Shown here piece by piece: positions 4,424-32,619 of a stretch of DNA of 64,000 nt (positions within the stretch are counted from its first letter, which is position 1; each line of letters starts with the position of its first letter). The stretch is from Eledone cirrhosa (taxonomy: Eukaryota): positions 20,584,001 to 20,648,000 of the forward strand of contig OZ024756.1 in assembly GCA_964016885.1 (NCBI GenBank), read 5' to 3'. A program made the translations under genes and the position numbers. The notes under the pieces were generated by a model. That model saw nothing but the letters and a program-made list of their open reading frames with translations, was not told the DNA's origin and made no database searches.

Positions 4424-4475
<52 letters not shown>

Positions 4476-4717
4476 CAAAGGGATATTTAATTTGTTGGTA
4501 ATTCAACAAATATATATATTTATAACAGATTCGAAGCACTTGACAGGTTTTCTGGAGTATAATATCAATGATATTAATAAATGGAAACTATATTTATAAA
4601 ACCATATTTATTCTATTATATATATTTCAAGGGTACCAAAACTTTGGTACGCTATCTGGTAAAACTTGAACCGTTAAGGTCTCATTCCTGGATAAGTCAA
4701 TATTTATAAAAACTCTG

Positions 4718-4778
4718 TATTTTATCTGATGAGAGCGTACCAAAGTTTTGGTACCCTTGAAATATATATAATAGAATA
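4718..4778 (+). ncRNA. Minimal type I hammerhead ribozyme motif (family A)
   Basis: Stem I TATTTTAT/ATAGAATA, CTGATGA at 4726-4732, stem II GAGCGTACC..GGTACCCTT, GAAA at 4759-4762, palindromic TATATA stem III, predicted cleavage after AUA (4770). Confidence 0.8.
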
Positions 4779-4819
4779 AATATGGTTTTATAAATATAGT
4801 TTCCATTTATTAATATCAT

Positions 4820-4857
<38 letters not shown>

Positions 4858-5729
4858 TTCATGAATAATTTTTCCAAACATAAAACATCTCAGGTGACGA
4901 ACGGTGTCTCAAGTAATGAACACGCAAACCAGCAACAACAGTTGGCAACAAGCTGGGAGTATTGGTGGGAAAGTGTCACTTGCTGTGTAGTTAGTTACTA
5001 TGGTGATATTTATCTGTCTTTCACAGTCCCCCTCTCTCTCTCTCTCTGTCTGTATTTTTCTCTCAACATTTTGTATGGGAAAAGGTTTTGGTTTACAAAC
5101 ACTTCAGTTGACAAACAGCTTTCAGGAATGAATTAAGTTTGTGAACCAAAGTTCCACTAAATGTGTATAATACCTGTACACACACACACACGCAAATACA
5201 CAAATATACATATACACACATAAATATACAAATATATCATCATCATCATCATCACCATCACCATTCTACGTCCATTCTTCCACGCGAGCATGGGTTAGAT
5301 TGGGTTGTCCTGTTGTGGGCAATGCCAGGTCGGGTGACCTTGTCTTGCTCATATGGGAACTGATTTTGGATTGATTTCTACAGCTGGATGGCCTTCCAAT
5401 ATATATACACACATAAATACACAAATATACATACACACACACACACATAAATACACAAATATACATACACACACACATAAATACAAATATATATACACAC
5501 ATAAATACACAAATATACATACACACACATAAATACACAAATATACATACACACACATAAATACACAAATATACATACATATACACACATAAATACAAAT
5601 ATACATACATATGCACACATAAATACACAAATATACATACATATGCACACACAAATACATAAATATACATATGTACACACACAAATATCTATATCTATAT
5701 ACATGTACATACACACAAACATGTATGTG

Positions 5730-5785
<56 letters not shown>

Positions 5786-5815
5786 CATATATACATACAT
5801 ATATATATATATATG

Positions 5816-6195
5816 GTGGCTGCCAACTCGTTTTCGAGTACGGCCACTACTTTATATCCATGTAGGAGAAACCCTACCGAAGCGCTGAACGAGTGACTTT
5901 TTAGTCCAGCCAGCGACTTGAAAACTCTGGTACAAACACTACACTTGTGACAATTATTGACACATAGTGCTGGGCCCATGGTACCATGTGACAAGTGCAG
6001 AGAGATCTCCAGATATAAAGCAATGCCTGTGCCGTGAAGCTTTTATAGTGAGCAAAGGCACTGCACAAAGCCAGTCCCACTCTCTTAACCAAGATGATAT
6101 TTACCAAAAAGAAGAACAAGTCAACATCATTGGATACCATCAGGGTTGCAGGTGTTATATCAGAGTTTTCCTTCTCCTAGAATTCTGCCTGACAT
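5816..6195 (-). mobile_element. LINE 3' end fragment with C2H2-like finger (RTE-like); second, longer copy at 38399-38971 (+)
   Basis: Peptide [19 protein letters not shown]. Two highly similar copies in opposite orientation, both within microsatellites. Confidence 0.65.
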
Positions 6196-6981
6196 AATAT
6201 ATATACATACATATATACATACATATATATATGTAGTCAGTTATACTTATTGATATGTGTGTGGGAGAAAAGTTGATTTCCAAACACATGATGCTGCTGC
6301 TACTGATGGTGATGGCGGTGGTGGGGAGGATGGTAGTGGTGGCGATGGGGAGGATGGTGGTGGTGGTGGCGATGAGGAGGATGGTGGTGGTGATGGTAAT
6401 TGATAATTTAGAGTAGTGAAGTAGTAGTGACTGATAATGTTGGTAGTAGTAGTGGTGGTGGTGACGATAATGCTGGTAGTAGTAGTGGTGGTGGTGGTGG
6501 TGGTGGTGGTGGTGGTATATGAGCCAACCAGCAGACATAGTAAAAGGTGTTGGTGCTGGTAGAAGTAGTAGAGTAGGTGAAAGGAGAAATGAAAGAACTT
6601 TTGTTAGGTGGTGATGGTGTTGGTGGTGGTAGAGGTGGTGGTGGTGGTGGTAGAGGTGGTGGTGGTGGTGATGGTGGTGGTAGAGGTGGTGGTGGTGGTG
6701 GTAGAGGTGGTGGAAGGAAGAAGTTGGGGGGAAAGGTTGCTTTGCCATTGATGAGAAGGAAAAACTGAAGATTGCACACAGCAAGAAACATAAGAACTGA
6801 CATTGAAGGTAGACAGATGGGGTGGATGACATAATGGTGGGTATGAATGGTGGGGGAACCACTGCTCATAGGGAAATGCCTATCTCTCTCACACATATCT
6901 ACATACACACATATACCTATATAATGTACATGCATGCGTGTGTGTCTCTCTCTCTCTGTATATATACATATATACATATAT

Positions 6982-7320
6982 GGAGGCACATGGCTTAGTG
7001 GTTAGAGCATTGGCTTTGCAATCGAAAGGTTGCGAGTTCAATTCTCAGACTGGGTGATGTGTTGTTTCCTTGAGCAAGACACTTTATTTCATATTCCTCC
7101 AATTTACTCAGATGTAGAAATGAGATGATAGGGACTGGGGTCCCTATCATTCCACTGCAAAGTGGTCGTGGAGGTGCCACGGCAAAAAAGCACCCAGCAC
7201 TCACTGTAAATGAGGTTGGTGTTAGGAAGGGCATCCAGCTGTAGAAATCAAGCCAGAATCAGTTCCCGTCCCACCCTTGCAAGCAGGGAAAAAGTGGACG
7301 TAAAATGAAATGATGATGAT
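6982..7320 (+). mobile_element. tRNA-derived SINE (family 1)
   Basis: Near-identical to 2199-2544, flanked by (TA)n. Confidence 0.85.
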
Positions 7321-8609
7321 ATATATATCTAACCCATGCTAGCGTGGAAGAACGGACGTAAAACGGTGATGATGATGATATATATCTGTGTGTGTCATAT
7401 ATATATATAGATAAGATCCCAGACCTCATCAAATCGGACCGAGGAAACAATGTTTCCATTGGTCTTTCCAGTTGCTAATACTATCTACCAGTCGCAAATC
7501 TAGACAGAAGGGGCAACATGAAATAAAGTGTCTTGCTCAAGGATACAACATATCGCCCAGTCCAGTTCTGAACTCAAGATTGTGAATATAATTTCTAACC
7601 ATTCAGCCATGCCCTTTCACACATATATATATATAAACACATATGTATGTATATCATCGTGATCCTTTTATGGCTACGTCCAAATCTAGCATGGGTTGGA
7701 TGAGCTGTCACAGTCCAAGACTAAATGGGTGAAAGAGCCCACATCTTGCTCATATGTTCCATATTTGGTGTGGTTTCTATGGCTGGATGCCCTTCAAAAT
7801 ACCAACCACCTTACAGAGGGTAGTGGTACTAGCACTACCACATTACTGAGTAGATAGGGTTCAGTTTATCATGGCACCAGCTCTATCATTTTTCTGAGGT
7901 GGATGAAGGGTTGAGGAGGGGGGGTACTAGGTACATTTTATTGTGACACCAGCACTAGAGAGGTTATCAGACTGAAGACTCCTCTCAAACCCATTAATGT
8001 CTTCCTTTCATTGCTAAACATCATAGCTTCTGGTCTTACATCACATTTTAGTGTCACAGTGCTTCTACTGGTGGGTGAGTCATTTGTATTATCGTTCCTT
8101 GAAGTCATTCTTCACAACATTACTCCATGTCTTTCTTGATCTCCTTCTTCCACATGTTCCATCCATTTCAAGTGCTTGGCATCTTTTTTTTCTACAACTG
8201 TTGCTCCCCTCATGCATCATATGACAATACCAGCACAATTGTCTCTCTCTCTAGCATGCTACATTCATTTCATCTTATTCTCAGCTTTTCTATCAATTAT
8301 TTGTGTTCTGTCATTCATACAAAGTAACATTACACATCAAACAAAGCATGCATGCCTCATTTATTTTTACTGCTGCAAATCTTCTGCACTTAAACACATG
8401 CATCAATTAATCTGCCTTTTACTTTGAGAGAGAAGCCCTTTGTTTCCAGCAGAGTTATCACTCCCTGAATTTATTCCACCCTTTTCTCACTTTAGCTACG
8501 ACACTTTAGCTACATTCACCTCCACTGCTAATGAGGTTACCTATTTAGCAAGAACTTTCTATCATTTATAATGAACCTTCTGAACATTCTAAAAGTCTAA
8601 AGTCTGTCA

Positions 8610-8855
8610 AGCCCAGAAGCTCATCAAGCCAGTATTTACTCAGGTGTTAAGCGACTGAGAGTACATGACTTCCCCCTGGATAGGACACCAGTCTATCACA
8701 GGATTAAACCCCTAGCTATTGCTGGTACTCATTTTCAGTTGAGTATACTGGAGCAACATGAAATAAAGTGTTTTTGCTCAAGAACACAACACACCCCAGT
8801 CCAGGGATTGAACCTGCAACATTATGATTCTAAGTCCAACACTCTTACCACTAGT
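8610..8855 (-). mobile_element. SINE family 3 (copies at about 48390-48730 and 53975-54232)
   Basis: Shared GACTGAGAGTAC..GCTGGTACTCATTTTCAGxTGAGTATACTGGAGCAAC..TTGCTCAAGAACACAAC. tRNA-like head on the minus strand in the 54 kb copy. Confidence 0.7.
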
Positions 8856-9139
8856 GAAGTATATCTCTTGTGTATCCTTACTGTCGACTACTCCTGTGCA
8901 TCTGTTACATATAAAGTCTACTCTTTCTGTCAACCTTCCTGTAATCCCACCACATCTTCTGTATGTCCCCTGTCTCCACTGGGTACAACCGAATCCTATT
9001 ACAGATCACAACACCGTACAACCCTCCCCACCACTTCAGATATTTCCACAACATTGCTACATGGCAAACATGTTTAATGATTTATTTATTGATTGCAGGA
9101 AATTACAATATATTTAAGTTAATTATACAAATACAAATT

Positions 9140-9685
9140 TGTATAAACCACAAAACTTTAAGTTTCAGTAATGCACCTCTCTGAAGTCTGTGCCCTAGAT
9201 CGCTGCCATGTTGGCCTACATTGAAGTACCAGCCCTCTATAAACCATAAACCTTTAAGGTTTAGTAAAGTATCTCTTTGAAATCTGAGCCAAGTTGGCCT
9301 TAATAGTGGCCCCAGCCCTATATAAACCCCAAACCTTTAAGGTAATGTGCTCTAGGTAGCTTCCAAGTTGGCCTTAATAGTAGCACCAGCTCTGTATAAA
9401 ACCCACAAACCTTTAAGATTTAGTAAAGTACCTCTCTGAAATCTGTGCCCTAGATGGCTACCAAGTTAGCCTTAATTGTAGTACCAACTCTGTATAAAAC
9501 CCCAAACCTTTAAGGTTTAGTAAAGTACCTCTCTGCAATCTGTGCCCTAGGTAGCTGCCAAGTTAGCCTTAATTGTAACACCAGCCCTGTATAAAAACCC
9601 CAAACCTTTAATGTTCAGTAAAGTACATCTCTGAAGTCTGTGCCCTAGATGGCTGCCAAGTTGACCTTAATAGTAGCACCAGACC
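9140..9685. repeat. Minisatellite, about 80-95 bp unit, about 6 copies
   Basis: Recurring AAACCTTTAAG..AGTAAAGTACCTCTCTGAA..TGTGCCCTAG..CCAAGTTGGCCTTAAT. Confidence 0.85.
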
Positions 9686-10150
9686 TAGGTCACTATCATC
9701 AATTCAAATTCTTGAAGGTAGTGCTCCAGCATGGCCACAGTCCAATGAATGAAACCAGTAAATGATAGAAAAACAAAGCCGCGTTACACAGAGAAACAAG
9801 ACATATATATATATATATATATATATATAGCATTAGACTAGATTATAAATAACTAAATTCCACTAACTAAATGTTGTGGTCCAACAGGTTAATGTGTGTG
9901 TCTATATATGTGTATATTTATCTTGTCTTGTGTGTAGATGTGTGTATATGTGCGTGTATATATCTTGTCTTGTGTGTAGATGTGTGTATATGTGCGTGTA
10001 TATATCTTGTTTTGTGTGTAGATGTGTGTATATGTGCGTGTATATATCTTGTTTTGTGTGTAGATGTATATGTGTGTGTATCTTGTCTTGTGTGTAGATG
10101 TATATGTGTGTATCTTGTTTTGAGCATGTATGTGTCTATGTGTGTCTGTA

Positions 10151-10185
<35 letters not shown>

Positions 10186-10668
10186 ATGTATGTGTGTGTG
10201 TGTGTGTGTGTGGATGGTTGGGTGTTTCCACATCTATGTGTATATATGTGTTCGTATGTATGTGAATCTGTGTGTGTCTGTGGATGGATGTTTACACACA
10301 CATATGTGTGTATATATGTGTGTGTGTGTATATGTATGTGTGTATCTGTATGTGAGCATGTTTGTGTGTTTGTGTGTGAGTGTGGATGGGTGTTTCCACA
10401 CATGTATGTGTATATGTGTATGTATGTGTATCTGTGAGTGTGTGTGGATGGATGTTTACACACACGTATATGTTTGTGCGTGTGTGTATATATGTGTGCG
10501 TGTGTGTGTATATGTATGTGTGTATCTGTTTATGTGAGCATGTTTGTGTGGATGGTCGGGTGTTTCCACATGTATGGGTATGTATGTGTATATATGTGTT
10601 CGTATGTATGTGTATCTGTGTGTGTGTGTGGATGGATGTTTACACACACATATGTATGAGTGTATATA

Positions 10669-10705
<37 letters not shown>

Positions 10706-11421
10706 CTCTGCGCATGTTATATTAATACAGCAAAGACAATTAGTTAAACATTGGAGTCTGAAAATAACTCCACAAACAAGATCAATCAGTTGTCATCACT
10801 TTCATTGACGTCAAAGAACAACAAGAAGACAGGAAAGACCTGACATTAAATATAGAAATAAACAACTAAATACACTGTTTTGTTTGGGGATTTATGACTG
10901 GGAGCACACACACACACCCACACCCATCTCCTCCCTGCGCCCCCTCACTTGATAGATTGACCAACAGATTTCCTTGCAGTAGTTGTTCCCACTTGTTCCC
11001 TGAGCTTGGAGTTCAAATCTCACTGCTACATTTGTTATTGAATCGACCTCAGAGGGTTTTCAACTGAGAGAGGCTGAGGACTGGAATGAATACTGCAAAT
11101 AATTCTGTCTGACGTTCTAACAACTCTGCCAATGACCCTATGTGTGTGTAAAAATATATATATACTAGCAGAATGGCCCGGCGTTGCTCGGGATTCTAAA
11201 CATAGATTGGCATGTTTATCCCTCCTTTCTGAAACAGTACAGAGAAGCACGGAATACCTCGGCCTGGGGATGGTGTCTACGTTTTGTGCTTATAAAAAAA
11301 AATTTGTCATAGATTACCAGGGGTTTAACTTAATTGGGTGCCTGAGAGTAAAATGTTCAACCCTCGAAAGCCAAGACGATAGGGTTAAGTAAAAAGGCAT
11401 TCGACAAACCAAACATGTATT

Positions 11422-12262: not shown

Positions 12263-12469
12263 CCTTTCAATGTTTCATCGAATCTTCACCAATTGATGCA
12301 GAAGCCCTAATGAAAAGTGAAGTCCCCATGGGTGAATAGGCAAATAATTTTCCATTACGATTTTTCAAAAGCTTGTAATTGCGTTCCTTCTCTTTTTTGT
12401 AGTTGTTTTTGCTGCTGTTTATATTTTGTTTTTGTGTATGCAAAAATATCTGTACATGACACGAATATA

Positions 12470-12500
<31 letters not shown>

Positions 12501-12984
12501 TAACACAATAGATTAAAGTTTAAGCAAAGTATCGCTGCTTTAACCCTTAACGGGAACTTATATATTATCCTTATCGAGCCCGCTTTGGATTTTAGTCTTC
12601 ACATTTATTATTATTTATATATATGGTGTCCGACCCTCTACCGATACTGCCAATCCACCGCCTCATAATAAAAAAAATAATAATAATAAAATTATTGTGT
12701 ACAAGTGCTCAGGTATATATATATATATATATATATAAATATATATGTATATATATGTATAGAATGAGAGAGATAGGGACAGACAGACATTATAGAGACA
12801 GTCTTTATAGAGAGAGAGAGAGAGAGACATTATAGAGAGAGAGAGAGAGAAAGAGAGATACATTATAAAGAGAGATTTTAGAGACACAGAGACAGTTATA
12901 GAGAGAGAGAGAGAGAGAGTGTGTGTGTAGTTTAAAGAGTCTGGATGATAAAGTAATAGTAAAAGTAATCAAGATTGGACATGA

Positions 12985-13540: not shown

Positions 13541-14216
13541 TCTTTTATGTATCCAATCTACATATATAAACAGAATATAGTCATTCCTCACAATTGAGTA
13601 TGACTTGGTATCAACATGTACTGTATATCTTGTGTTTGTGCAAGTGCATGGATTAGAAGTTAAGGCATTCAGTACAAGATTGAAAAGTTGTGATTTTGAT
13701 ATCCTGGTGTGTGTTGTCTCCTTGAGCAAGATATTCTATTTCTCGTTGCACAAATAATTAGTCAAAAAGGTTAAATTAGATAAAATGCACTTTAGTTTTG
13801 TGCCAAGAAGGGCCACCACAAATACCCTCTTTTTAATGAGACAACTACAAGAGAAGTTCCTAGCCAAATGTAAGCCACTATATCTAACTTTCGTTGGTCT
13901 GGAGAAATCCTTTGACAGAGTACCACAACCTGTTCTCTGGTGATCCTTAACCTTCTGGAGGTTCCGGGCGCATTAAGTCGTCGATGGAGTAATCTCCCCT
14001 TGATACATAATGCAGTGGCAAGGGAAGCAATTCATAAAAATTTCTAGCGTGCTAAAGGTTAGGGAGTAGAAAATATGCTTGTGAAAGCACTGCAAACCAA
14101 TTACAGGGGAGCTGTCAGTAAAGTGAGAGAGAGTAAAGAATTTAGTTAGAAATTCAATGCAGGTTGGTGTTCAGCCCTTCTCTTTGTTATACCTCTCCAG
14201 ACCCTAACAGAGGAGT

Positions 14217-14446
14217 TTAACCCTTTAGCATTTACATTACTATATATATATACTATTGTATTTTCATGGTAAACCCTTTATCTCACATAATTATCCCACA
14301 TAATATCGAATCTACAAGATTTTGATATTATTTATTTTGAGAACAATACCTTAACATAAGTATGAGTGGCCAGTTACAGCCAGTTTGAACAAAATGAGAT
14401 GAGAGAATTCTGGCCGGATATGGCCGGTTTAAATGCTAAAGGGTTA
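14217..14446. mobile_element. TTAA-flanked MITE (piggyBac-like) inserted in decayed LINE RT-like sequence
   Basis: TTAA-CCCTTTAGCATTTA ... TAAATGCTAAAGGG-TTAA terminal inverted repeats. Further copies at about 22047-22486, 46516-46630, 56155-56328, 56514-56671 and 61930-62120. Confidence 0.8.
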
Positions 14447-15835
14447 AGACTTGCTGTTCATGGGAACTTATGTATGATAACAAACTGGTTCTTATGGCTG
14501 AATCTGGAGAAGAACTAGAGTAGAAATTCCAGCTTAGAGTAAATTTAGCAAAAACCAAAGTTTTAGTAAGTGGAGAAAGAAGTTAGGATCCTGATCCCAT
14601 CAGGGAAATGGTCTTGCTCAATATGTAGAAATTCTATATGATATACTCAATGTAAATCTTATTAGTGCTAGAGCCAGATTAAGTCTTTTTTGAGCCCCTA
14701 AGCACTTAAAAGATTATTCTATGTGTCTGTGTCCTACATATATGAGAAATATATTTAATTGAAATAAAATAGTACCCCTATTAGCTTGGTGCCTTAAACG
14801 TGTTTGTCTTGCTTAATGGTAAATCCTGTCCAGCTAATGGCTGCAAAGTGACCACCATATACAGCAGACAGTAAGAGGTTTGGTAGGAGAGAAACACTGA
14901 CAGAGATGAGATGATTTTATATATATATATATATCTTTTATATATATAAGAGAGAGAGAGAGAGGGGGGGGGAGAAATAGAGATGGGAATAGGTGGACAA
15001 AACAGACAGAAAGACACAGAGCGAGGGAGAGAGAGAGAGATGGGAAATGGTGGAAAAGAAAAAGAGAAAATAAGAGATAGGAGGTTAGAAAAGAAGATGG
15101 AAAGAAAGAGATAAATAAGTACGGGAGAGAGAGAGAGAGAGATTAGAAAAGGAGAGAGAGAGAGAGAGATTAAAGGACGGTGGAAGGAGAGAGAGAAGAA
15201 AAGACAAACAAAGACAACCAGAGAAGGGAAAGAAAATATCTAAACAATGATTTGTTAATATAGTGACAATATTTTGAAGTACACACATACACAGACACCA
15301 GCACACATGCTAATACATACACACACACAAGCACACACAACCCCACACACACACATACACAGCCATACAGACAGACACACACACAGACACATACACAGCC
15401 ATACACACAGACACATACACAGCCATACACAGACACATACAGACACACACACAGACACATACACAGCCATACAGACAGACACACACAGACAGACAGACAT
15501 ACGCACACACACACATACACAGCCATACAGACAGACACAGACACATACACAGACACACACACATACAGCCATACAGACACAGACACACAGCCCCACACAT
15601 ACACAGCCATACAGACACACACAGACAGACAGACATACGGACAGACACACACACACACAACCCCACACACATACACAGCCATACAGACACACACACACAC
15701 ACACAGCCCCACACACATACACAGCCATACAGACACACACACACACAGTTGTTTTTGTTGACCAATCGTTTACAACAATGAAACACCTACAAATATTGTA
15801 ACAGGAGAGAGTAACAACAAAAGGTTTTATCAATA

Positions 15836-17758: not shown

Positions 17759-17760
17759 AG

Positions 17761-18350
17761 TTGTATCACTACATCAATAGCCTGCGCATCGGTGTTTCCT
17801 TGAGGCTCGGCCTCCGGATCTGCGAGCCACACCAATGTCGCTGCGGATCCACTGTGGACCCTTTCGGCCTCCACCCGCTTTCCTGTCGCCACAGTGCCGG
17901 CCGCCTTCCACGCCATGCTGCCCTCAACGAGGTCATAAAGCATGGCTTGGACGCTGCAGGCTTCCCTTCCCAGTTCGAGCCGGTGGGGCTGGACCGAGGG
18001 GACGGCAAAAGGCCAGATGGCATGACGATCTTCTTGTTCCGTGGTGGCAAACCCCTTGTCTGGGATGCTACTTGCACCGACACTTTCTGCGGCCGCAACC
18101 TGGTGCAGTCTGCGACTGACCCAGGTTCTGCTGCACGTCGGGCTGAAGAGGCCAAGCCCCTCAAATACTGGTCACTCTCCGACAGGTTTGTGTCCTCGGC
18201 CCCAGGGCTACCTCCCTACTCACCACCATAGGCGCTGAGCTGGCCAGCCGCAGCTGTGAACCCAGCGAGTTGGAGTGGCTTTTCCCTTGCTGTCCTCCGC
18301 GGGAACGCCTTCTCCATCCTGTCCGCCGGGGCTGTGGGGGGGCCCCATCA
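17761..18350 (+). mobile_element. CRE-like non-LTR retrotransposon 3' fragment (Cys/His finger plus restriction-like endonuclease)
   Basis: HQCRCG..GLHPLSC..GRLPRHAALNEVI..EPVGLDRGDGKRPDG..LVWDATCTDT. GC-rich island, disrupted near 18190. Decayed relatives at about 41115-41480 and 53366-53540. Confidence 0.8.
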
Positions 18351-18583: not shown

Positions 18584-21012
18584 ATTAAACATTTCATACG
18601 CTTATCAAAGGAGTGCTTAATTATTGGAATATATAAACTGCTACTGCCACAGCCAAACAGTAATATTGAAAACAAATTCAAAATATAAAATATTTTTAAA
18701 AAAACGCCATAGCAACAACTGTCAAACCTACAACCTTACCACCATAGCCACCACCACACCACCACCATCACTATTAGCAACACCACCACCACCACCATCA
18801 CACCACCAACATCAACATCACTATTAGCAACACCACAACCACAACCACCACCACCACCACCATAGGATTCTCTACCTGTGTGTTTGTGTGTATCTGTTTC
18901 AATCTCATATATATGTGTGTGTGTGTGTGTGCATGTTTCACTATTGTGTGTGTGCTTCAATCTCATCTATATATATGTGTGTCTGTGTGTGTGTGTAAAT
19001 TCCCGAGTTGTGTCAAGGGGTAATCACAGTTAAAAAAGGGTACTCAATACATTGATAGAGGCATTTTTATTAAATATAGAAATGACTTCTACAGGACTAG
19101 AACTGTTTCATTCATATGAAATCATCAGGAATGTCAGATATACAGGACTCAGGAATGTTAGATATACATATATATATATATATATATATTTTTAAAAACT
19201 CGGGACATCCAATGGACATGTGGTTAGAATGTCTCAGGAAAGAATCGCTGGACAGATCTGTAGCTCGGAGATCAGAGAGTCACTCCAGGTAGAGCCACTA
19301 CTTCTCCAAATTGAGAGATCACAGCTCTGATACTATGGGCATGTGGTTAGAATGCCGTAAGAAAGAATCGCTGGACAGATTTTATGGGCGAAACCAACTG
19401 GCAAGAGACCCAGGGGTAGACCCTGAGCAAGATGGTTAGATAACATCCATGAGCTTGGCTGGTCTCGCTTGGAGATCCAGCCGGATCAGTTGGAGATGGT
19501 TGCTTCTGACAGGACCCGCTGGAGGGAGTGTTTGAGGATGCCCCCATGACCTTCTCAGGAATAAGTGAGCAAAGAAGGGAACATTCAAGAAGTTTTCCTA
19601 AAAAAAATTTGTGGATCCCTTTCTGAAAAAGGTTGTGCATCATTCTTCTGTGCAGTTGTATGTGAAAGTGCAGCTGTGCACCTCTTGAAACTCACTTAGC
19701 AGCTTAGAACCTTTGATACCAAACCTCCTGAAACTTTCAGCAGGTTCTATGATACTATGTTGTTTATATTTATTTTAAAACCTTCCATCATAATTTCATG
19801 TAATAACCTTTGTTATGTTTCAAACATCAGCTAAACAATGAGAAGTTTAGTTGGATTTAGTTTTAATTCAATAAGATATAAAACACCCAGTCCACTCTGT
19901 AAAGTGGTCATACTGGTGACATGAGAAATACAGCACTCAGTCCACTCTGTAAAGTGGTCATACTGTGACAGAGAAAGCACCCAGTACACTCAGTAAAGTG
20001 GTCATGTTGGTGACACAAAAAAGCACCAAGTTCACCCTGTAAGGTGGTTATACAGGTGACACCATGAAAAAGCACCCAGTCAACCTTGTTAGATGGTTGC
20101 TTCATTGCAATGATAAAGATCACCCAGTCTACACTGTAACGTGGTTGGCATCCAGCCATAAAAGCCAAGCTAAAATACAGGCCCATATGAGCAAGACGTG
20201 GTCACCTGAATTGACTTGTCCCAATACCTGATAAACCTATCTAACCCATGCAAATGTGGAAAAATAGATGTTAAACGAGAACGATGACGATTTAAAATTA
20301 AGAAATTAACCATGCATTGTATAAGAATGATATAAAGAACAGAAGTAGGGAGGCGATCCAATTGGCATGGGCCTGGCATTTTGAGAGGGCCTATGATTGA
20401 GACAAAGAAGGGGACTCTTTGGTAAAAAATTACCCCTTTTTTTATAAACCATTCCAGTTCTTTTAGTCCGTTTTGTTACATATACTCGGGTCTCGAAAAA
20501 TCGCCCCTCCCCCTTCCCACTTAATATTTCAGACCCTTTCTTCCTACCCTGCTCTTATTCCAATGCCCCCACTTATTAAATTAGGCTAATCTGTCTCCAG
20601 CAAAATTTTTATTCAAGTGGTAGCATTCTTGCGACATTGAATTTTCTTTAGACATTCATTAAAAGACATTATACATGACCCCAAAAGTACATTACTAGAA
20701 ATCCCATACATCATAAAATAAATTGAGGAGGATGAGTGACCTCAACATGGGCAATCTGTGACCTCAAGATGGAGGACAAGTGACTTCAACATGGAGAACC
20801 AGTGATCTTGACATGGACAATCTGTGACCTCAAGATGGAGGACAAGTGACCTCGACATGGAGAACCAGTGATCTTGACATGGACAATCTGTGACCTCAAG
20901 AACTAGTTTAGTGACCCCTCAATACCAACAGCTTTGTTAATGGATTTTCTTTTTAATGAAATTTTGCAGGTGTATGGTTTTCCATGATGTAGATTACAAT
21001 AATGTTAATGGA

Positions 21013-21058
<46 letters not shown>

Positions 21059-22046
21059 CACACACAGGAGAGAGAGAAAAATTTTACCTCTCTATATACC
21101 CTCTCTGCATTGAGTACTCCCATGATTTGTGGTCTCCTCGGTCTCAGCACTACAGACTCTCAAACTCTCTAAATATATATATATATATTAAAATAACAGA
21201 TTAAAGTTTAAGCAAAGAATCGCTGCTTTCACCCTTAATGGGATCTCCTGAAGGGTGAAAGCAGCAATTCTTTGCTTAAACTTTAATCTGTTATTTTAAT
21301 AAATATTTGCTCTAGGGTTCTTATATATTTGATATATATTTATCCTTATCGAGCCCTCTTTGGATTTTAGTCTTCAAATTTATTATTATTACTATATATA
21401 TATATATATTTATATATTATTTCAAGTATTACATCAAAGCTGAAACTACAATAAGGCAACACGAGTTGAATTATCTGAGAGAGTCCCTAAACACACTCAA
21501 TGATGCGAGAAATGAATTAATTCCGCCATCAGAGTGAACACATTAAGGAGGGGAAACACCATGAATAATATATAGACCAGGTGTATGCCAACTATAGTAT
21601 ATAAACAATGACGAACATATATATATATATATATATATGAACAGTCGATCAACAAGATCCCAGATCTCATTCGCTTAATGAGTGGGGTGGAGCTCGTCAA
21701 ATCGGACCAAGGAATCAATGTTTCCATTGGTCTGTCCAATTGCTAATACAATCTACCGGTCACTTAGAATCCTCAAACACTCCTTCCAACAGATCCTGTC
21801 AGAAGTAACAGTTTTTAACTGATTCGGCTGGATCCCTAAGCGAGACCAACCAAGCCCATGAATGTTATCCAACCATCTTGCTCGGGGTCTACCCCTGGGT
21901 CTCCTGCCAGTTGGTGTTGCCCATAAAATAAATTAATAAATAACAAATAAATAATGTTTTATTTCTTTTAAATTTCATGGACATAAACCTAATCTAAACT
22001 TTTGAAATTGTAGATCAGCAAAATTTAATTTTAAAAATATTCATTG

Positions 22047-22486
22047 TTAACCCTTTAGCAATATATTACTCTATATATACTATTGTATTTTCATGTTAAC
22101 CCTTTAATGTTCAAACCGGCCAAAACCAGCCAGAATTCTCTACCTCTTTCTGTTGAAACTGGCTGTAACTGGTCACCAAACTGATGTTAAGGTATTGTTC
22201 TCAAAATAAATACTTTCAAAATCTCATAGATTCGATATTATGTGAGATAATTATCCGAGGTAGAGCCTTTACCTTGAAAATTATATAGAGTAATGTGAAT
22301 GCTAAAGGGTTAAAGGCTTTATCTCACATAATTATCTCACAATATTGAATCTACAAGATTTTGATATTATTTATTTTGAGAACAATACCTTGACATCAGT
22401 ATGAGTGGCCAGTTACGGCCGGTTTGACTAGAAAGAGGTGGGAGAATTCTGGCCGGATATGGCTGGGTTAAATGCTAAAGGGTTAA
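22047..22486. mobile_element. TTAA MITE nested in a copy of itself
   Basis: Outer copy 22047-22486 is interrupted by an inverted inner copy at about 22097-22313 at a TTAA site. Confidence 0.65.
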
Positions 22487-24441: not shown

Positions 24442-24505
<64 letters not shown>

Positions 24506-25078: not shown

Positions 25079-25110
<32 letters not shown>

Positions 25111-26039: not shown

Positions 26040-26400
26040 GTGATCATTCGAGCAGCTAAAAATGGCAGCTAAATCTCCCTCAAAATTACACCCTTGATGA
26101 AAATAAAATTAAAATATTATATTGGATACTGTTGTTCCAAAATACAGTTTTTGTATATACCTGGACTCGAGCAGCTAAAAATAGCAGCTAAATGTCCCTC
26201 AAAACTACACCTTTGATGAAAATAAAATAAAACTATCATATTGGATGCTGTTGTTCCAAAGTATACTGTATGTATATTCCTGGACTCGAGCAGCTAAAAA
26301 TAGCAGCTAAATGTCCCTCAAAACTACACCCTTGATGACAATAGAATTAAAAATATCATATTGGTACCGTTGTTCCAAAGTATAGTTTGGGTATATTCCC
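26040..26400. repeat. About 120-bp tandem repeat, 3 copies
   Basis: TCGAGCAGCTAAAAAT..CAGCTAAAT..CCCTCAAAA..TACACC at about 26048, 26167 and 26287. Confidence 0.85.
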
Positions 26401-29400
26401 GTAAGGGTTTATTTGGGATCAGGGCCCTCCAAAGGAGTCAACAACAACAATAACATAGATAGAATCAGAAGATTTCACCATAATTATAACAAATATTACC
26501 TACCCTTCGCAGTGTTTCCAATTCTGTTCCAAATATTTTCTGTTTCCTCCATCACAGAAAATCGCAGGGTTTTATTTTTGTTGCCTTTTTTTTAAATTTG
26601 CTTTCGACTTCGTCATTTTACGTCTATCTCCCTCTTTCTCTATTGCACTTTATCTCTCTGTCTGTGTTTCCCTCTCTCTCTTTCTCTTCGTCCGTCTTAC
26701 TTCCCTCTCTTCTGTCTGTCTTATTTCACTCTCTCCATCTATCTTACTTCCCTCTCTCTCTTCTCTCTGTCTGTCTTATTTCTCCCTCTATTCTGTCTGT
26801 CTTATTTCACTCTCTCTCTCTCTGTATCTTACTCCCCTCTCTCTCTTCTCTTTGTATTCCCCCTCTTTATCTCCGTCTGTGATACTTCTCTCTCTCTCAC
26901 TTCTGTATATCTTATTTCCCTCTCTCTTTGTCCGTCTGTCTTGCTACCCCTCTCTCACTCTCTCTCTCTTTCTCTGTATTTCTCCCTCTGTCTCAATTTT
27001 TCTCTTTCCCTCCCTCTGTCTCAGTCTCATTCAAACCTGACGCTTCGCTTGTTTTGATTCTTGGGTATTTTCCCGTCGTTTCTCTATATTTCCTTGTTTG
27101 TCTCTAAGCTTGATGTTTCGTTCATTCATCGAGTTCGTTCAGTCTCCATTATGTTATTCATTCATTAATTAAATTCGTTCAGTGTTGTTTTTTTCAGTCA
27201 TTCATTCAGTGAATTCGTTCAACCTTCTATCTTTCTTTCATTCATTTACTTAGTTCCTTCGCCGTTCTCTCATTCATTCAATGACTTCCACCCGTATTCA
27301 TTCTTCTATTACGTCTGTTAAGTGTTCTTTCATTCATTCGTTCACTAAATTCGTTCAATGTTCTGTCATTCGTTTAGTTAGTTCGTTCGGTAATCCGCCA
27401 TTCATTCATTTAGTTCATCGAGTTCGTTCAATGTTCTTTCATTCATATTTCCTTCAGATATTTGTAACGTCACATATCATTTGCCATTCCTTCACAAACC
27501 ACATTAGAAGCACCTATTGTCTTTCTATCTTCTATTATATCAAAGCTGGTGTATCTGTAGGGTAAAAAGTCTGTCACGTTGTGAACAAGGTTTGGTAATA
27601 AAAGTATGTTTGTGTGCGTGAGAGAGAGGAGGGACGGTAGTGGGGCCGAATTATTATTTTCAAACCTATACTACAAAAATATTGTTTATCCACAAATTAT
27701 ATGAATAACATATTCAATTTTGGGAGTTTATATATAAACTTATAAATAAAATATTTAGATAGTCATGTTGATTATTAATACTTTGCAGTTATTTCTAATC
27801 AAACCGAGGAATTCCCACGGAGGCTGTTAGCCAGTCATTATCATTGCAGCAGGGTCGATAACATAAAGTACCAGTAATGCACTGGAATAATTGCTGGCCT
27901 TGTGCCAAAAGTAGAAACAATTATTATTGCAACTGTTTTTAAAAAATAGCCATTTCAAACTAGACAAACAATATTATTACTGTAATTCCCCGTAATGTTG
28001 TGTTGTGTTATTTTTTTTCTGTGCGTTTAACGACTTACATGTACGTCTGTTTGTCTTCAGTCGCTTTCTTCCTTCCCGCTATTTTTTTGCTTCTGGCAAC
28101 ACCTCCGCGATTTCTTGGAGTTCTTTATTGTCTTTTTCTTTTTGGTTATCGTTTGTTAATAACAAAGTGCTTTCTCCTGCTTCCATATTTGTTGTTGTTC
28201 TTGTAATAATTCCACAACATAAAAACTTGGAGAGAATAGGAAATACAAAGAGAGAAGATATATATATGAAGACGTCTCGCAGATTCTACTTTCATACGTT
28301 GTACTTATTTTTACAAAGTGACGCAAATAATGCCGGCATGATGCGTTTCGCTGCCATTATACTTTGCCTTTCATCCTTACGGGGTCGATAAAATAAAGTA
28401 CCAGTAATGCACTGGGAAATTGCTGGCCTTGTGCCTAAAGTAGAAACAATTATTATTATTGAGTATTAACTTTGCCTAACATCCTTACGGGGTCGATAAA
28501 ATAAAGTACCAGTAATGCACAGGGGTAATTGCTGGCCTTGTGCCAAAAGTCGAAACAATTATTATTGAATATATAGAGAGGGGGAGAGAGGCGTGCTATA
28601 TAAAACCATGTTATTCTGTGATTAGAGAACAGACTTACTTTACTTATGAGTTCTTTTTCCCCTACATGTGTTAATGTTGTCGTGTGTGAGTATGAAAGAC
28701 TGCTTGTGCGAAAGTGAGAGAAAATAGAATTTTGTGATAGTGTTCGTGTGTTGTCAGGTGTGTAAAAATGTGTGTGTGTGTGTGTTAGTTCGATTAAGTG
28801 GATGAAAGAGAGACTGTGTTGGTTCAAGTGAGTATGTGGGTGAGAGAGAAAGAAAGAGTGTGTGCGTGTTAGTTGAAGTGAGAAAGTGTGTGTGTTAGTT
28901 CAAGTGGATGAGAGTGTAAGTGGAATGGTTAATAGAGAAAGCGAAAGATATGGAGGGGGGAGGGTATACCATAGAGTGTGTGTGTGTACGTAAGTGGAAT
29001 GGTTAATAGAGAGAGAGTGGCGAAGAAAGTGTGTATTCTTATGTGTACAAAAGAAGGGGAGAGGGGGATAAAGATTTTGTAGTAAGAGTACGTATGTGTT
29101 CGGTATTGTTTGCATGTTCATGCGTGTGCACGTGCACGAATTGCAGGTGATGTATGCATTTGAGAGAGAGGGGGGGTTAAATGTATGATTTTTAGTTTGC
29201 CATGCAGTTGTTGGCATGCAGTGTAGTGTGGTCTATTATTATAGATGCATAAATTGTTGCGTGTGTGTATTATTTGCGTGAGTTGAACAATGTAGGACTT
29301 AGTTAACATGTGTTGGTAAGGACGTACACGTACAAACTGTGCTGTGTAGTACGTCTGTGAATTAGTGTAAACACACATCTTTAAAGTACAGTCAAAATGG

Positions 29401-29588
29401 AATAGCACTGAATAATATATATATATATATCTATATATATATATATGTGTGTGTGTGTAGAAGTTCTATTTAAATTGTTGGGATACAACAAGCAAATATT
29501 TTTATAACTGATATAAAGCACTCAACAAACTATTGGAGTAAAAATACGATATATTAACAAATGGAAACTATATTTATAAAACCATATT

Positions 29589-29653
29589 TATTTCATTATA
29601 CATATTTCAAGGACACCAACTTAAATTATGGTGTGCTTTCATCAGATAAAATA
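29589..29653 (-). ncRNA. Minimal type I hammerhead ribozyme motif (family A)
   Basis: Minus strand reads TATTTTAT CTGATGA AAGCACACC..GGTGTCCTT GAAA TATGTATA^ATGAAATA. Confidence 0.75.
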
Positions 29654-29875
29654 TAATATAGATCAGTTTTATAAATAAATATTGACATACTCTTAAAGAA
29701 TGCGACCATTTCTGTTGGAAGCTCCCGGATAGTGTCCTTGAAATATGTATAATGAAATAAATATGGTTTTATAAATATAGTTTCCATTTGTTAATATATC
29801 GTATATATATATATATATATATATTTATTATATTTTTGTTTTTCAAATCCACTTTCAATAAATACACCAGGATTT

Positions 29876-29935
29876 TTTCATTCTGATGACTGAAAGCAAA
29901 TGTGTTTGCTTTCAAGAAACCACTGGTAAATGAAA
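29876..29935 (+). ncRNA. Type I hammerhead ribozyme motif (family B)
   Basis: TTTCATT CTGATGA c-TGAAAGCAAA tgtg TTTGCTTTCA-a GAAA CCACTGGTA^AATGAAA. 7-bp stem I, 10-bp stem II, GUA cleavage triplet. Confidence 0.8.
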
Positions 29936-30216
29936 TAATTATCTTATGTTGTTTATTACATAACTATATCAGCCCGTAGGTTGAGGAAAAGGAGGAGGAG
30001 AGGAAAGGAGTACAAGCTCTTCGTACTCCTGGAGATGAGGGTTGCACATTTTTTTTCGGGGGTATGTGTTACCCATATAAACTGTCTCCCTCTATTGGGG
30101 AAAATCGACTAACTTTTAAATTCCATCTGTGATAACATTTTACACGTTTTTATTGTATGTAAACTTCCCCCTTTGTATTTGTCCCCTTCTTTTGTGCCCC
30201 TGTGGCTAATAAAGAA

Positions 30217-30260
<44 letters not shown>

Positions 30261-30364
30261 TAGGTAATTCCGAAGAAAAAGCAAAGGGAAAAAGAGTGCT
30301 CTATGTATAGAACAGAGCTATTTAATTAGAAAGTGAACAACACACTATATAGAGTTTTTATCAT

Positions 30365-30432
30365 CTCTGTCTGATGAACGATCTAGACATATATCAATAT
30401 TGTCTAGGGTCCAGAAACCTTTGGTAACGGAG
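30365..30432 (+). ncRNA. Type I hammerhead ribozyme motif (family C)
   Basis: CTCTGT CTGATGA ..GATCTAGACA..TGTCTAGGGTC.. GAAA CCTTTGGTA^ACGGAG. Base of stem II is mismatched. Confidence 0.65.
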
Positions 30433-30470
30433 TAGTTATATATTGTGTTGTTCACTTTCTAATTAAATAT

Positions 30471-30508
<38 letters not shown>

Positions 30509-31422
30509 TTTACGTCCGCTTTTCCCTGCTTGCAAGATATATATATATATAATTGTTTCTACTTTTGACACAAGGCCAGCAATTACCTCAGTACATTACT
30601 GGTACTTTATTTTATCGACCCCCGTAAGAATGAAAGGCAAAGTTAACCTCGGCAGGATTACAAGGGTGAATGGTTACTCCTTCATTACGTTTATTGGTTG
30701 GTGACGCGCATTTCGCTACTGATCAGCTCAAGGTTTGGTCTGTATCGATCTAGCCTGACTCTGGAATCAAAAGCTCGTGGGACCTCTGTGGTAGTGATGT
30801 CAGAATGAAACACAGGTGAGCCTACAGTAACTCTGCATCACACTCCCTGGATATATATATATATGTGTGTGTGTCTGTGTGTGTGTGTATGTGTGTGTGT
30901 TAAGTATTTCCGTAGAAAAGGTAAAGGAAAGAAAGACCTCTGTGGTAGTGATGACAGAATGAAACACAGGTGAGCCTACAGTAACTCTGCGTGACACTCC
31001 CTGGATATATATATATATGTGTGTGTATGTGTGTGTGTTAAGTATTTCCGTAGAAAAGGTAAAGGAAAGAAGAGTGCTCTATCTATAGTACAGAGCTATT
31101 CAATTACATAATAAACAACATAATATAATTATTCCATTACCAAAGGTTTCAGGAAACATGAAACGTCCAGCTCGTTCATCAAATGAAACAGTTAGCATAA
31201 CTCCTTCATAGTCAGCCTGTGAACTCTTCAGTGGACCCTTGTATATATATATATATATATATATCATATATATATATATATATATGATACAGTGAATTAC
31301 TACTAGTGGTGGTACCAATTTGAGCACTCGAACCACAGGCAGAATGTATATAATAAGAAAAAAGTTTTGTTTACATGTTCTTATGTTTCTCTTGAGTTTC
31401 AACCGTTACATGCGTTTCACAG

Positions 31423-31519
31423 ATGGCTGGCTCAAGGTCACTTATGGAAACCATGAACCTGACTCCAGCATCGATGAAACTTCATTGTTTTTTCTTCTTA
31501 TACATCAGATTTTCCCGCG
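31423..31519 (+). CDS. Candidate exon of an unidentified gene (DGWLKVTYGNHEPDSSIDETSLFFLLIHQIFPR)
   Basis: TTTCACAG acceptor, GT donor at 31520, unique island among repeats. Phase-compatible with the next two exons. Confidence 0.4.
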
Positions 31520-31568
31520 GTGTGATCAGCCTTGTGTGTGTGCGTGTATGTGTATATATATATATATA

Positions 31569-31910
31569 TCATTCATCATTCATTTCATTTTACGTCCACT
31601 TTTCCCTGCTTGCAAGGGTGGGACGGGAACTGATTTTGGCTTGATTTCTACAGCTGGATGCCCTTCCTAACACCAACCTCATTTACAGTGAGTGCTGGGT
31701 GCTTTTTTGCCATGGCATTTCCACGACCACTTTGCAGTGGAATGATAGGGATCCCAGTCCCTATCATCTCATTTCTACAGCTGAGTAAACTGGAGCAATG
31801 TGAAATAAAGTGTCTTGCTCAAGGAAACAACACATCACCCAGTCTGAGAATTGAACTCACAACTTTTCGATTGCAAGGCCAATGCTCTAACCACTAAGCC
31901 ATGTGCCTCC
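31569..31910 (-). mobile_element. tRNA-derived SINE (family 1)
   Basis: Reverse complement of 2199-2544, flanked by (TA)n. Confidence 0.85.
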
Positions 31911-31971
31911 ATATATATATATATTATTCAAAATATTAATAAATGAAAAATATTCTCATAACCAAAATATA

Positions 31972-32034
31972 TATTTTATTATACATATTTCAACGGTACA
32001 ATGGTGTTTAAGTACATTTTCATCAGATAAAATA
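31972..32034 (-). ncRNA. Minimal type I hammerhead ribozyme motif (family A)
   Basis: Minus strand reads TATTTTAT CTGATGA AAATGTAC..GTACCGTT GAAA TATGTATA^ATAAAATA. Perfect 8-bp stem I. Confidence 0.7.
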
Positions 32035-32619
32035 TATGAGAGATTGGATATGCGACATACCGCCAAGGTTTTGATTATTCAATTCCTGTAGTGGAATTGA
32101 ATACATAAGTCTTGTTTATGGAAGACCAACAATCACCCATGCATATCAGTCTCCCCTGTCCATGCCACCGATCTTGTCCAAGGGAAAGGCAAAGGCCAAT
32201 ACAGCTTGGCACCAGTGACTTTGCAACTCATTTCTTCACCTGAGTAAACTGGAATAACATGTAATAAAATGTCTTGCTCAAGGTCACAATGCATCACCTG
32301 GTTCACCTGGTCCAAGAATCGAACTCACAACCTCCTGATTGCAAGCCAGCCCGATGCTCTAATCTCTAAGACATGTGCCTTTACACACACACACACACAC
32401 ACACACGTGTGTGTGTGAATGTGTGAGCCCCGGGTGCAGCCACAGTAAGGTACTCAATACATTAGTAGAGTGTGTACAATAAATTTAATATAGAAATGGC
32501 TTCTACAGGTCCGTTTCCTGATGATTTCCTTTGAATGAAACGGTTCTAGTTCTGTAAAAGCCATTTCTATATTAAATTTGTTATATATATTATATATAGA
32601 CACACACGCGAACGACAAA

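What the first reader, a model, noticed from the sequence alone, without database searches (positions are those of the whole stretch)
4562..32582. Short, often fold-back elements carrying minimal hammerhead ribozymes, associated with (TA)n microsatellites
Seen: five type I hammerhead folds (4718-4778 +, 29589-29653 -, 29876-29935 +, 30365-30432 +, 31972-32034 -) with intact CUGAUGA/GAAA/UH cores. They fall into three families with unrelated stems. All lie in 150-400 bp non-coding segments within or beside (TA)n or other simple repeats. Three of the five sit within a long inverted repeat. Established: Penelope-like retroelements carry minimal type I hammerheads in their pseudo-LTRs, often show an inverted terminal segment, and mobilise non-autonomous ribozyme-bearing elements. 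Inference: these are several cephalopod lineages of non-autonomous PLE-derived/retrozyme-like elements with a (TA)n target preference. No RT or GIY-YIG ORF was recognised in the window.
Basis: partly seen in the sequence, partly recalled or inferred. Interest (0 to 1): 0.85.

Follow-up and report, generated by a model that had tools for sequence, protein, structure and literature searches.

The report
Penelope-like retroelement end fragments with hammerheads
The hammerhead-ribozyme motifs are real and sit in short, very abundant repeats that are most likely the protein-less end pieces left by several Penelope-like jumping genes, often laid down as two head-to-head copies, so this is a known kind of element rather than a new one.

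Summary
The five type I hammerhead folds are present at the stated places and far exceed chance (4 hits vs 0.01-0.13 in shuffles; a wider descriptor gives 6 vs 0.05-0.11). The window holds about five more. By the sequence downstream of the ribozyme the five fall into two families, not three. Each fold-back is two 5'-truncated copies joined head to head, with arms 91-100% identical, one ending at a short 3' end and one at a long 3' end 50-80 nt further on. Laid reads show both ends joined to (TA)n in many copies, but the junction is not shared. That matches the inverted pLTR plus optional 'tail' of Penelope-like elements (PLEs). It does not match tandem retrozymes or a fold-back unit that copies itself whole. 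No RT or GIY-YIG was found, so the autonomous partner and clade are inferred. Departures from published PLEs: longer tails and no G10.1-C11.1 pair (0 of 10). One lead: two diverged copies begin at the same 5' base, hinting at a short template RNA. New member of a known kind.

The parts
4473..4653 (-). Family A copy E1, tailed arm: 5'-truncated inside hammerhead stem II, runs through the short end to the long end at (TA)n
   Evidence: 92 of 92 nt identical to the other arm
4652..4825 (+). Family A copy E1, tailless arm, inverted; carries the whole hammerhead 4718-4778 (core 4726-4732, GAAA 4759-4762, predicted cleavage after 4770); ends at (TA)n
29472..29732 (-). Family A copy E2, tailed arm with the whole hammerhead 29589-29653 (predicted cleavage after 29597); short end about 29551, long end about 29472; 5' start aligns with that of E1
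29732..29802 (+). Family A copy E2, tailless inverted arm, truncated in the 3' strand of stem II; ends at (TA)n
   Evidence: 73 of 73 identical
31930..32060 (-). Family A copy E5, single tailless copy with hammerhead 31970-32036 (weak stem II); 5' boundary approximate
29838..29969 (+). Family B copy E3, single tailless copy with hammerhead 29876-29935; 5' boundary approximate
   Evidence: (43 contigs continue into (TA)n after 29969), 59
30260..30351 (-). Family B copy E4, tailed arm, truncated just downstream of the cleavage site
   Evidence: 32 of 33 identical
30352..30469 (+). Family B copy E4, tailless inverted arm with hammerhead 30365-30432 (predicted cleavage after 30426)
31040..31240 (-).
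32429..32580 (.). Family C fold-back E6: tailed arm 32429-32517 (-), tailless arm 32515-32580 (+) with core at 32518; stem I lost at the junction
18997..19165 (-). Family C copy E8: single tailed copy with hammerhead (core 19128, U.U at the base of stem II, long palindromic helix III)
1493..1858 (-). Family D copy D3: tailed copy between (TA)n tracts, hammerhead with CUGAGGA core at 1720 and a 61-nt stem II
4267..4423 (.). Family D-like fold-back D1: tailed and tailless arms, both truncated downstream of the hammerhead
   Evidence: 34 of 34 identical
31290..31535 (-). Family D copy D2: tailed copy with a decayed hammerhead (3' half recognisable)
   Evidence: by eye
3354..3453 (+). Weak further hammerhead candidate (core CUGAAGA at 3363, 62-nt stem II); not the minimum-energy fold
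   Evidence: z = +1.28

Best explanation
These are short, protein-less, high-copy repeats with a type I hammerhead motif and two alternative 3' ends joined to (TA)n, and they are most likely the end modules (pLTR with or without tail) of several endonuclease-bearing Penelope-like retroelement families. Inferred mechanism: the element's RT/GIY-YIG protein nicks both strands of an AT-rich target. It starts cDNA at two fixed internal sites of one RNA, about 45-50 nt after the hammerhead cleavage site and 50-80 nt further on. Both cDNAs stop early, in or just upstream of the hammerhead, and are joined head to head. This gives a fold-back with one tailed and one tailless arm; one priming event gives a single copy. 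The hammerhead is inherited from the master element and would need a dimer through its palindromic helix III. In read-through transcripts of E1 and E2 it is predicted to be locked in the arm duplex. Most copies are likely dead ends. Shown: motifs, arms, two ends, variable junctions, (TA)n abutment, abundance. Inferred: the PLE enzyme, double priming, cleavage, and whether the template was a full mRNA.
For: (1) All 5 fold-backs whose arms I compared (E1, E2, E4, E6, D1) have both 3' ends facing outward, one tailed and one tailless arm, and arm identities of 92/92, 73/73, 32/33, 31/34 and 34/34. E1 and E2 are only 63/91 to 46/50 identical by region, so each fold-back was made from one template. 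(2) (4 of 23 listed runs laid at 80% likeness on 29447-29975): 9,702 contig records of X1 and 34,022 reads of X21 lie on it. Loose ends of (TA)n appear at 29551/29544 (72 and 47 contigs), 29551/29556 (1,264 and 5,195 reads) and 29969 (43 contigs). 800 molecules end at 29473 (depth beside 1,377). (3) Depth is 2,524.5 at 29734 against 1.1-2.2 million on the arm, and joints between the arms fall at many other positions (15 of 39 rows shown). (4) Of 40 variant rows shown (48 hidden), the only core position is N7 (29887). 29890 C>T restores the closing pair of stem II; 29594, 29899, 29913 and 29933 are wobble-compatible. A loose-end consensus at 29613 (5,155 reads) carries a different but still pairing stem II with C-G replaced by U-A (read by eye). 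(5) All 10 folds have a self-complementary helix III, as in the PLE variants of PMC4209133. (6) 5' truncation, an adjacent inverted copy, a tail at one end only and (TA)n bias are described for PLEs (PMC8557442; PMC3846280). Two internal RT start sites, extension of both strands and no need for cleavage were shown in vitro for an anole PLE (PMC11167929).
Against: No RT or GIY-YIG sequence is linked to any copy, and four collection scans found no relative with a flank to read, so PLE identity rests on architecture alone. Tails are 50-80 nt, not the 30-40 nt in print. 0 of 10 folds have the G10.1-C11.1 pair that PMC4209133 calls highly conserved. Covariation among the three window copies of family A is not significant (2 compensatory pairs; 143 of 500 shuffles reach it). 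Only E3 folds into all three hammerhead stems as its minimum-energy form (1 of 10). E1 and E2 share a 5' start, which random truncation does not predict. Frequent 1-nt indels at 29529-29553 in reads argue that this stretch is not the ORF start, unlike the tails of PAc and Pen2a. Arkhipova 2013 explains head-to-head repeats by self-priming instead of double priming.
Confidence: 0.62

Rival explanations
1. The copies come from short dedicated non-autonomous RNAs (about 250-300 nt, starting about 75-85 nt upstream of the core) that borrow a PLE enzyme in trans: SINE-like, pLTR-derived families. Fold-backs would still form at insertion.
For: E1 and E2 begin at the same aligned base within 2 nt, and their first ~40 nt are homologous (26 of 37 columns, 0 of 2000 shuffles). 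Sequence beyond 29734 is heterogeneous (17 contigs, agreement 0.67). No ORF trace among about 12 copies. Indels in the post-ribozyme stretch. Non-autonomous PLEs and pLTR action in trans are described.
Against: Only two copies share the start. Family B copies start at different places. Internal priming near the 5' end of an autonomous mRNA would give the same boundary. In the anole element the RNA must extend beyond the RT start sites, which a genomic end copy lacks. Depth fades gradually upstream (1.15 million to 0.12 million), though divergence blurs this.
Confidence: 0.27
2. They are dispersed monomers of non-LTR retrozymes: tandem hammerhead repeats that spread through circular RNA.
For: Size range and type I hammerheads fit. 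Monomer share can reach 1 in vertebrate families, and these derive from pLTRs. One contig steps back 110 nt across the family B hammerhead.
Against: No tandem hammerhead unit in the window. Ends do not fall at the cleavage site: depth shows no step at 29597 and none of the junctions lies there. The tail and the inverted arm are PLE traits.
Confidence: 0.07
3. They are fold-back DNA transposons (MITE-like) or chance hairpins in AT-rich, microsatellite-rich DNA.
For: Long inverted arms; the window holds other short inverted-repeat elements.
Against: Ends are asymmetric, junctions vary, single-arm copies exist, the ribozyme core is kept with variation at N7, and 0 of 100 shuffles reach the motif count.
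Confidence: 0.03

Closest known systems
Insertion units of endonuclease-positive Penelope-like elements: pLTR, adjacent inverted 5'-truncated copy, optional tail (Craig et al. 2021, PMC8557442, passages and section 11; Arkhipova et al. 2013, PMC3846280, passages)
   Same: 5' truncation, head-to-head inverted copy, extension at only one end, microsatellite targets that hide target-site duplications, solo end copies, hammerhead in the end repeat.
   Different: No ORF seen in any copy here; tails of 50-80 nt against 30-40 nt; clade unknown. (TA)n bias plus a hammerhead fits Hydra or Neptune; Naiads lack canonical hammerheads.
Poseidon element PAc of Anolis carolinensis (Frangieh et al. 2024, PMC11167929, main text read)
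   Same: Two fixed 3' ends downstream of the hammerhead, AT-rich targets, no truncation step at the cleavage site; the family A long end follows a hairpin with an AC-rich 3' arm.
   Different: In PAc the ORF starts at stem II and the tail is coding; no conserved ORF start was found here. Double priming is shown in vitro for PAc and only inferred here.
Minimal and variant hammerheads of metazoan PLEs (Cervera and De la Pena 2014, PMC4209133, parts 1-2 of 4 read)
   Same: Type I, long helix II, short palindromic helix III suited to dimers, mostly single dispersed motifs, some pairs on opposite strands, many families per genome.
   Different: 0 of 10 have G10.1-C11.1 (A-U, G.U, U.U, U.G, C.A or A.A instead); helix III is present, not absent; two folds have stems II of about 60 nt.
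Non-LTR retrozymes (Cervera and De la Pena 2020, PMC7229834, passages; Li et al. 2026, bioRxiv 10.64898/2026.07.22.740005, parts 1-3 of 5)
   Same: Short, non-coding, type I hammerhead, pLTR-related, AT-rich.
   Different: Defined as tandem arrays with a hammerhead in each unit and expressed as circles; here copies are single or inverted, with PLE-type ends.

Membership tests
Type I hammerhead ribozyme | CUGANGA, GAAA and UH core with three stems | tested here: met
   the five reported cores are intact. Rfam models do not score them.
Type I hammerhead ribozyme | Covariation of stems among copies | tested here: inconclusive
   91.7% of cells paired against 40-54% for slid partners, but 143 of 500 shuffles reach the covariation score (3 copies). 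Read variants are mostly pairing-compatible but largely unphased, and 48 rows are hidden.
Type I hammerhead ribozyme | Self-cleavage after UH | not testable with these tools
   Needs an in vitro assay or RNA ends.
PLE-type minimal/variant hammerhead | Short palindromic helix III (dimer form) | tested here: met
   10 of 10 self-complementary; self-duplex -2.2 to -12.8 kcal/mol against 0 to -1.4 as monomer hairpin.
PLE-type minimal/variant hammerhead | Conserved G10.1-C11.1 pair | tested here: not met
   0 of 10. A U.U at this place is reported for an axolotl retrozyme hammerhead.
Endonuclease-positive PLE (full element) | ORF with telomerase-like RT and GIY-YIG endonuclease | tested here: not met
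   None in the window. The genome is not held, so linkage elsewhere is untested. The copies are filed as PLE-derived end fragments, not as full elements.
PLE insertion unit | 5' truncation at variable points | tested here: met
   joints and depth decay.
PLE insertion unit | Inverted 5'-truncated copy, head to head | tested here: met
   5 of 5 fold-backs compared.
PLE insertion unit | Optional 3' tail at one end (two fixed 3' ends) | tested here: met
   loose ends and molecule ends. Length 50-80 nt, longer than the published 30-40.
PLE insertion unit | AT-rich or (TA)n target | tested here: met
   9 of 16 hand-set ends within 8 nt of (TA)4+, against 5.7% of positions within 12 nt (partly circular); independent (TA)n loose ends in reads.
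PLE insertion unit | Partial tandem (direct pLTRs) | tested here: inconclusive
   None in the window; one contig with a 110-nt step back.
Non-LTR retrozyme | Head-to-tail tandem units, each with a hammerhead | tested here: not met
   no same-strand tandem unit. The two same-strand family B cores 488 nt apart are separated by other repeats.
Non-LTR retrozyme | Expression as small circular RNA | not testable with these tools
   Needs raw RNA reads, which were not on offer.
MITE / fold-back DNA transposon | Symmetric fixed termini and a shared internal sequence | tested here: not met
   Asymmetric ends and unshared junctions.

The most novel reading that the evidence does not exclude
Family A, and perhaps the others, is copied from a short RNA with a fixed 5' start about 80 nt upstream of the hammerhead: either a dedicated non-autonomous 'Penelope SINE', or a strong-stop-like product of internal priming at the 5' end of the autonomous mRNA. 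It would carry a conserved cis-code for the two RT start sites: a quasi-palindromic 8-mer shared by the tails of families A, B and D (loosely C), and a terminal hairpin. This would explain on the order of 100,000 ORF-less, ribozyme-bearing copies, and would make this genome a natural map of PLE priming, junction and tail rules.
Probability: 0.3. Interest if true: 0.55.

Novelty: new member of a known kind. Interest (0 to 1): 0.3.

Why it matters
As found, it extends a known association (hammerheads in PLE end repeats, inverted copies, tails) to another animal genome and says how such hairpins should be annotated: as PLE insertion by-products, not as MITEs or retrozymes. My searches found no paper on hammerheads in cephalopod PLEs ('hammerhead' and 'ribozyme' are absent from PMC13282606 and PMC8967140), but most subscription papers and Repbase/Dfam are not searchable here. 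The very high copy number makes open PLE questions testable on one assembly: whether every fold-back pairs a tailed with a tailless arm (double priming versus self-priming), whether there is a fixed 5' start, and whether hammerheads without G10.1-C11.1 cleave. Many 30-90 bp perfect hairpins could also be a source of double-stranded RNA for editing or silencing (speculation, untested).

Tried and rejected
Whole-genome search: no genome held. Rfam: no hammerhead family hit. Pattern scans of metagenome contigs, prokaryote genomes and viral contigs: 0 matches each; these collections are not expected to hold this animal, so the blanks say nothing about linkage to an ORF. Pfam on 150 and 143 ORFs: no retroelement domain; Pfam also missed the LINE fragments seen by eye, so its power on short decayed pieces is low. 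A regex scan for PLE protein motifs gave only scattered short matches. No RNA holder listed; run X20 (RNA is a guess) gave 0 laid records: neither bears on expression. The 16 runs with a small share were not used as evidence, except X5 and X20, which were laid. Four short motifs were absent from the supplement of PMC8557442 (long cells there are cut at 400 characters, so this is weak). The supplement of PMC13282606 was listed but not read, and bioRxiv supplements are closed; a repeat library there could already name these families. The first inverted-repeat scan was swamped by microsatellites. A conserved ORF start or intron in the tails was looked for by eye and not found. Candidate cores at 1754, 2123 and the one-mismatch hits (8961, 19830, 44833, 58222, 62221, ATC repeats) were rejected or left as doubtful. 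Earlier-findings look-ups by place, by one word set and by sequence were empty.
Full report
OBSERVATION. The five reported folds are in the sequence. Each has CUGAUGA, a long stem II, GAAA, a short helix III, UA, and a 6-10 bp stem I. A strict type I descriptor finds four of them, against 0.01-0.13 per shuffled window; 0 of 100 shuffles reach four. A variant kept three. A version allowing long stems II and an unpaired closing pair found six perfect cores against 0.05-0.11; it added 1720(-), 3363(+) and 19128(-) and lost 30371 and 32026. The descriptors were written with the examples in view, so these counts show that the motifs exceed chance, not how many there are. Rfam scores none of them. 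Folded alone, only 29883 takes all three stems as its minimum-energy form, and z-scores run from -2.5 to +1.3 (10 folds).

FAMILIES. Self-comparison and alignments give family A (E1 4473-4825, E2 29472-29802, E5 31930-32060), family B (E3 29838-29969, E4 30260-30469, E4b 31040-31240), family C (E8 18997-19165, E6 32429-32580) and a looser family D (1493-1858, 4267-4423, 31290-31535). E3 and E4 have unrelated stems II but share the stretch from GAAA to the 3' end (38 of 53 columns, 0 of 2000 shuffles). The same test between A and B gave 55 of 2000, so a distant relation of A and B is possible.

ANATOMY. Every fold-back I compared (5 of 5) is two partial copies joined at their 5' ends, with 3' ends facing out. 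One arm stops about 45-50 nt after the cleavage site (short end); the other runs 50-80 nt further (long end). Arms are 92/92, 73/73, 32/33, 31/34 and 34/34 identical, while E1 and E2 differ much more (51/61 in the ribozyme, 46/50 to the short end, 63/91 in the tail). The junction differs each time: in E1 the whole ribozyme is in the tailless arm, in E2 in the tailed arm. Single copies end at either end (E3 and E5 short; E4b, E8, D2, D3 long). Nine of 16 hand-set ends lie within 8 nt of (TA)4+, against 5.7% of positions within 12 nt; five of the other seven abut (CA/TG)n (ends were partly set by the repeats, so this is partly circular). Three other local inverted repeats (21189-21298, 22096-22486, 56188-56647) and two tail-to-tail pairs (1451-1520, 2956-3089) were not counted as such fold-backs.

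OTHER COPIES. No genome is held, so I laid 4 of the 23 listed runs on 29447-29975 at 80% likeness. X1 (contigs, organism A) laid 9,702 records, X21 (RAD reads, organism A) 34,022, X5 (organism B) 89, X20 none. Summed X1 depth on the family A arm is 1.1-2.2 million, while seven of the eight listed single pieces have 8-15 (one 49.5). The tool warns that this is no copy number; with 3 loci in 64 kb it points roughly to 10^4-10^5 copies (my estimate). Loose ends of (TA)n mark the short end (72 and 47 contigs; 1,264 and 5,195 reads; also X5) and the family B short end (43 contigs). The long end shows as 800 molecule ends at 29473 and as 13 contigs whose loose end before 29494 runs into TA repeats. 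Depth in the tail is 0.55-1.2 million against 1.8-2.2 million just inside the short end, so the tail is optional. Depth at 29734 is 2,524.5, and inter-arm joints fall at many other places (15 of 39 rows shown), so the fold-back is not copied as a unit. There is no depth step at the cleavage site. Among 40 variant rows shown (48 hidden), the only core position is N7; the stem II closing pair of E3 is restored in most copies; several stem changes are wobble-compatible; loop positions vary. A loose-end consensus at 29613 (5,155 reads; 2 contigs of X5) has another stem II that still pairs, with C-G replaced by U-A (read by eye). RAD reads may over-count a few loci. Formal covariation on the three window copies is not significant.

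NO CODING PARTNER. No RT or GIY-YIG hit in 150 long ORFs or in 143 short ORFs at the elements, and no informative motif match. Pattern scans of three public collections were empty. The link to an autonomous element is therefore not shown.

MECHANISM. Craig 2021 (PMC8557442; passages, section 11, supplement search) describes PLE insertions as highly 5'-truncated, often with an adjacent inverted truncated copy and a 30-40 bp tail at one end. It reports (TA)n bias in Hydra and Naiad, a proposed microsatellite bias in Neptune, and no canonical hammerhead in Naiads. Arkhipova 2013 (PMC3846280; passages) reports head-to-head repeats, microhomology junctions and solo pLTRs, and favours self-priming. 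Frangieh 2024 (PMC11167929; parts 1-2 of 4) shows that an anole PLE protein nicks and extends both strands of AT-rich DNA, starts at two internal RNA sites that bound the tail, and does not need ribozyme cleavage. My inference is that each fold-back here is two cDNAs from one RNA, primed at the two sites on opposite strands and joined after early termination. Helix III is self-complementary in all 10 folds, the dimer-type design of Cervera 2014 (PMC4209133; parts 1-2 of 4), which reports low activity in vitro. Read-through transcripts of E1 and E2 fold into -147 and -119 kcal/mol hairpins that bury the 3' half of the ribozyme. A transcript starting inside the element would not be blocked.

AGAINST, AND OPEN. 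Tails are longer than published, show frequent indels near the short end and have no evident ORF start. No fold has G10.1-C11.1. The ribozyme-bearing arms of E1 and E2 start at the same aligned base within 2 nt, and their first 40 nt are homologous. With two copies this is a lead. It fits a short non-autonomous RNA, or priming near the 5' end of an autonomous mRNA; the paper I read does not discuss solo copies. Tandem retrozymes (PMC7229834, passages; bioRxiv 10.64898/2026.07.22.740005, parts 1-3 of 5) are not matched: no tandem unit in the window, and one contig with a 110-nt step back. That preprint itself notes that most PLE insertions are truncated to a single terminal repeat.

HOST AND NOVELTY. 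If right, PLEs are known there: 31 recently active families in Octopus vulgaris (PMC13282606; part 1 of 3 and passages) and Penelope expansions in coleoids (PMC8967140; passages); neither main text mentions ribozymes. Paper searches found no account of these families. PMC8969392 (passages) gives the same PLE hallmarks for curators. Earlier scan notes on other genomes reached the same reading; they are unchecked and not evidence.

VERDICT. Real, well supported, and of a known kind: PLE-derived end fragments with hammerheads, several families, very abundant. Interest 0.3. The shared 5' start, long tails and unusual closing pairs are the parts worth a follow-up.

Noticed in passing
window 4310, 4534, 21112, 29516, 30294, 31072, 31322: A quasi-palindromic 8-mer (R-A-G-Y-R-C-T-Y type) lies in the tails of families A, B, D and a further tail at 21080-21172, about 20-30 nt beyond the short end. 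The looser pattern scanned occurs 23 times on the + strand of the window, so it is not specific by itself.
   Followed up: partly
window 4486-4507 and 29476-29492 (-); 30269-30274, 31049-31054, 1510-1515 (-): Family A long ends follow a 6-8 bp hairpin with conserved stem and different loops. Family B and D3 long ends carry a C-UNCG-G motif shortly before the end (by eye; not in the minimum-energy folds).
   Followed up: partly
window 2205-2545, 3853-4239, 6989-7322, 31568-31903 and fragments: tRNA-derived SINE family (Rfam tRNA 31840-31903), 83-96% alike, whose 3' end matches the 3' end of an RTE-like LINE fragment at 1187-1395; RTE label recalled, not tested.
   Followed up: partly
window 22096-22486, 14216-14447, 56155-56653, 61929-62119, 46495-46633: Inverted-repeat elements with TTAA-CCCT-type termini, resembling non-autonomous piggyBac-like MITEs; label recalled.
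   Followed up: no
window 17760-18230 (+) and 41115-41385: Fragment reading like a CCHC zinc knuckle plus restriction-like endonuclease of a non-LTR retrotransposon (by eye); no Pfam hit.
   Followed up: no
window 21189-21298, with a relative at 12482-12558: Symmetric fold-back with about 50-nt arms and no clear hammerhead, next to a family D-like tail.
   Followed up: no
window 1451-1520 and 2876-3205: Tail-to-tail pair of element ends around one (TA)n, and a probable further fold-back split by a SINE piece, with a GAAA-helix III-UA half at about 3147-3170.
   Followed up: no
window 2116-2175 (+): Decayed hammerhead-like fold (CUGAUGA at 2123, GAAA changed, long helix III) between (TA)n and a SINE; by eye only.
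   Followed up: no
window 19126-19165 (-): Upstream of E8 a short duplication repeats the stem I and core start, then jumps to the helix III end at the cleavage site; possibly a deleted partial tandem.
   Followed up: no
window 29400-32600: Six ribozyme-bearing insertions of three families plus D2 cluster in 3.2 kb, with another cluster at 1450-4830; the rest of the window has one (19128). Fits repeated insertion into AT-rich or earlier insertion sites; not tested.
   Followed up: no
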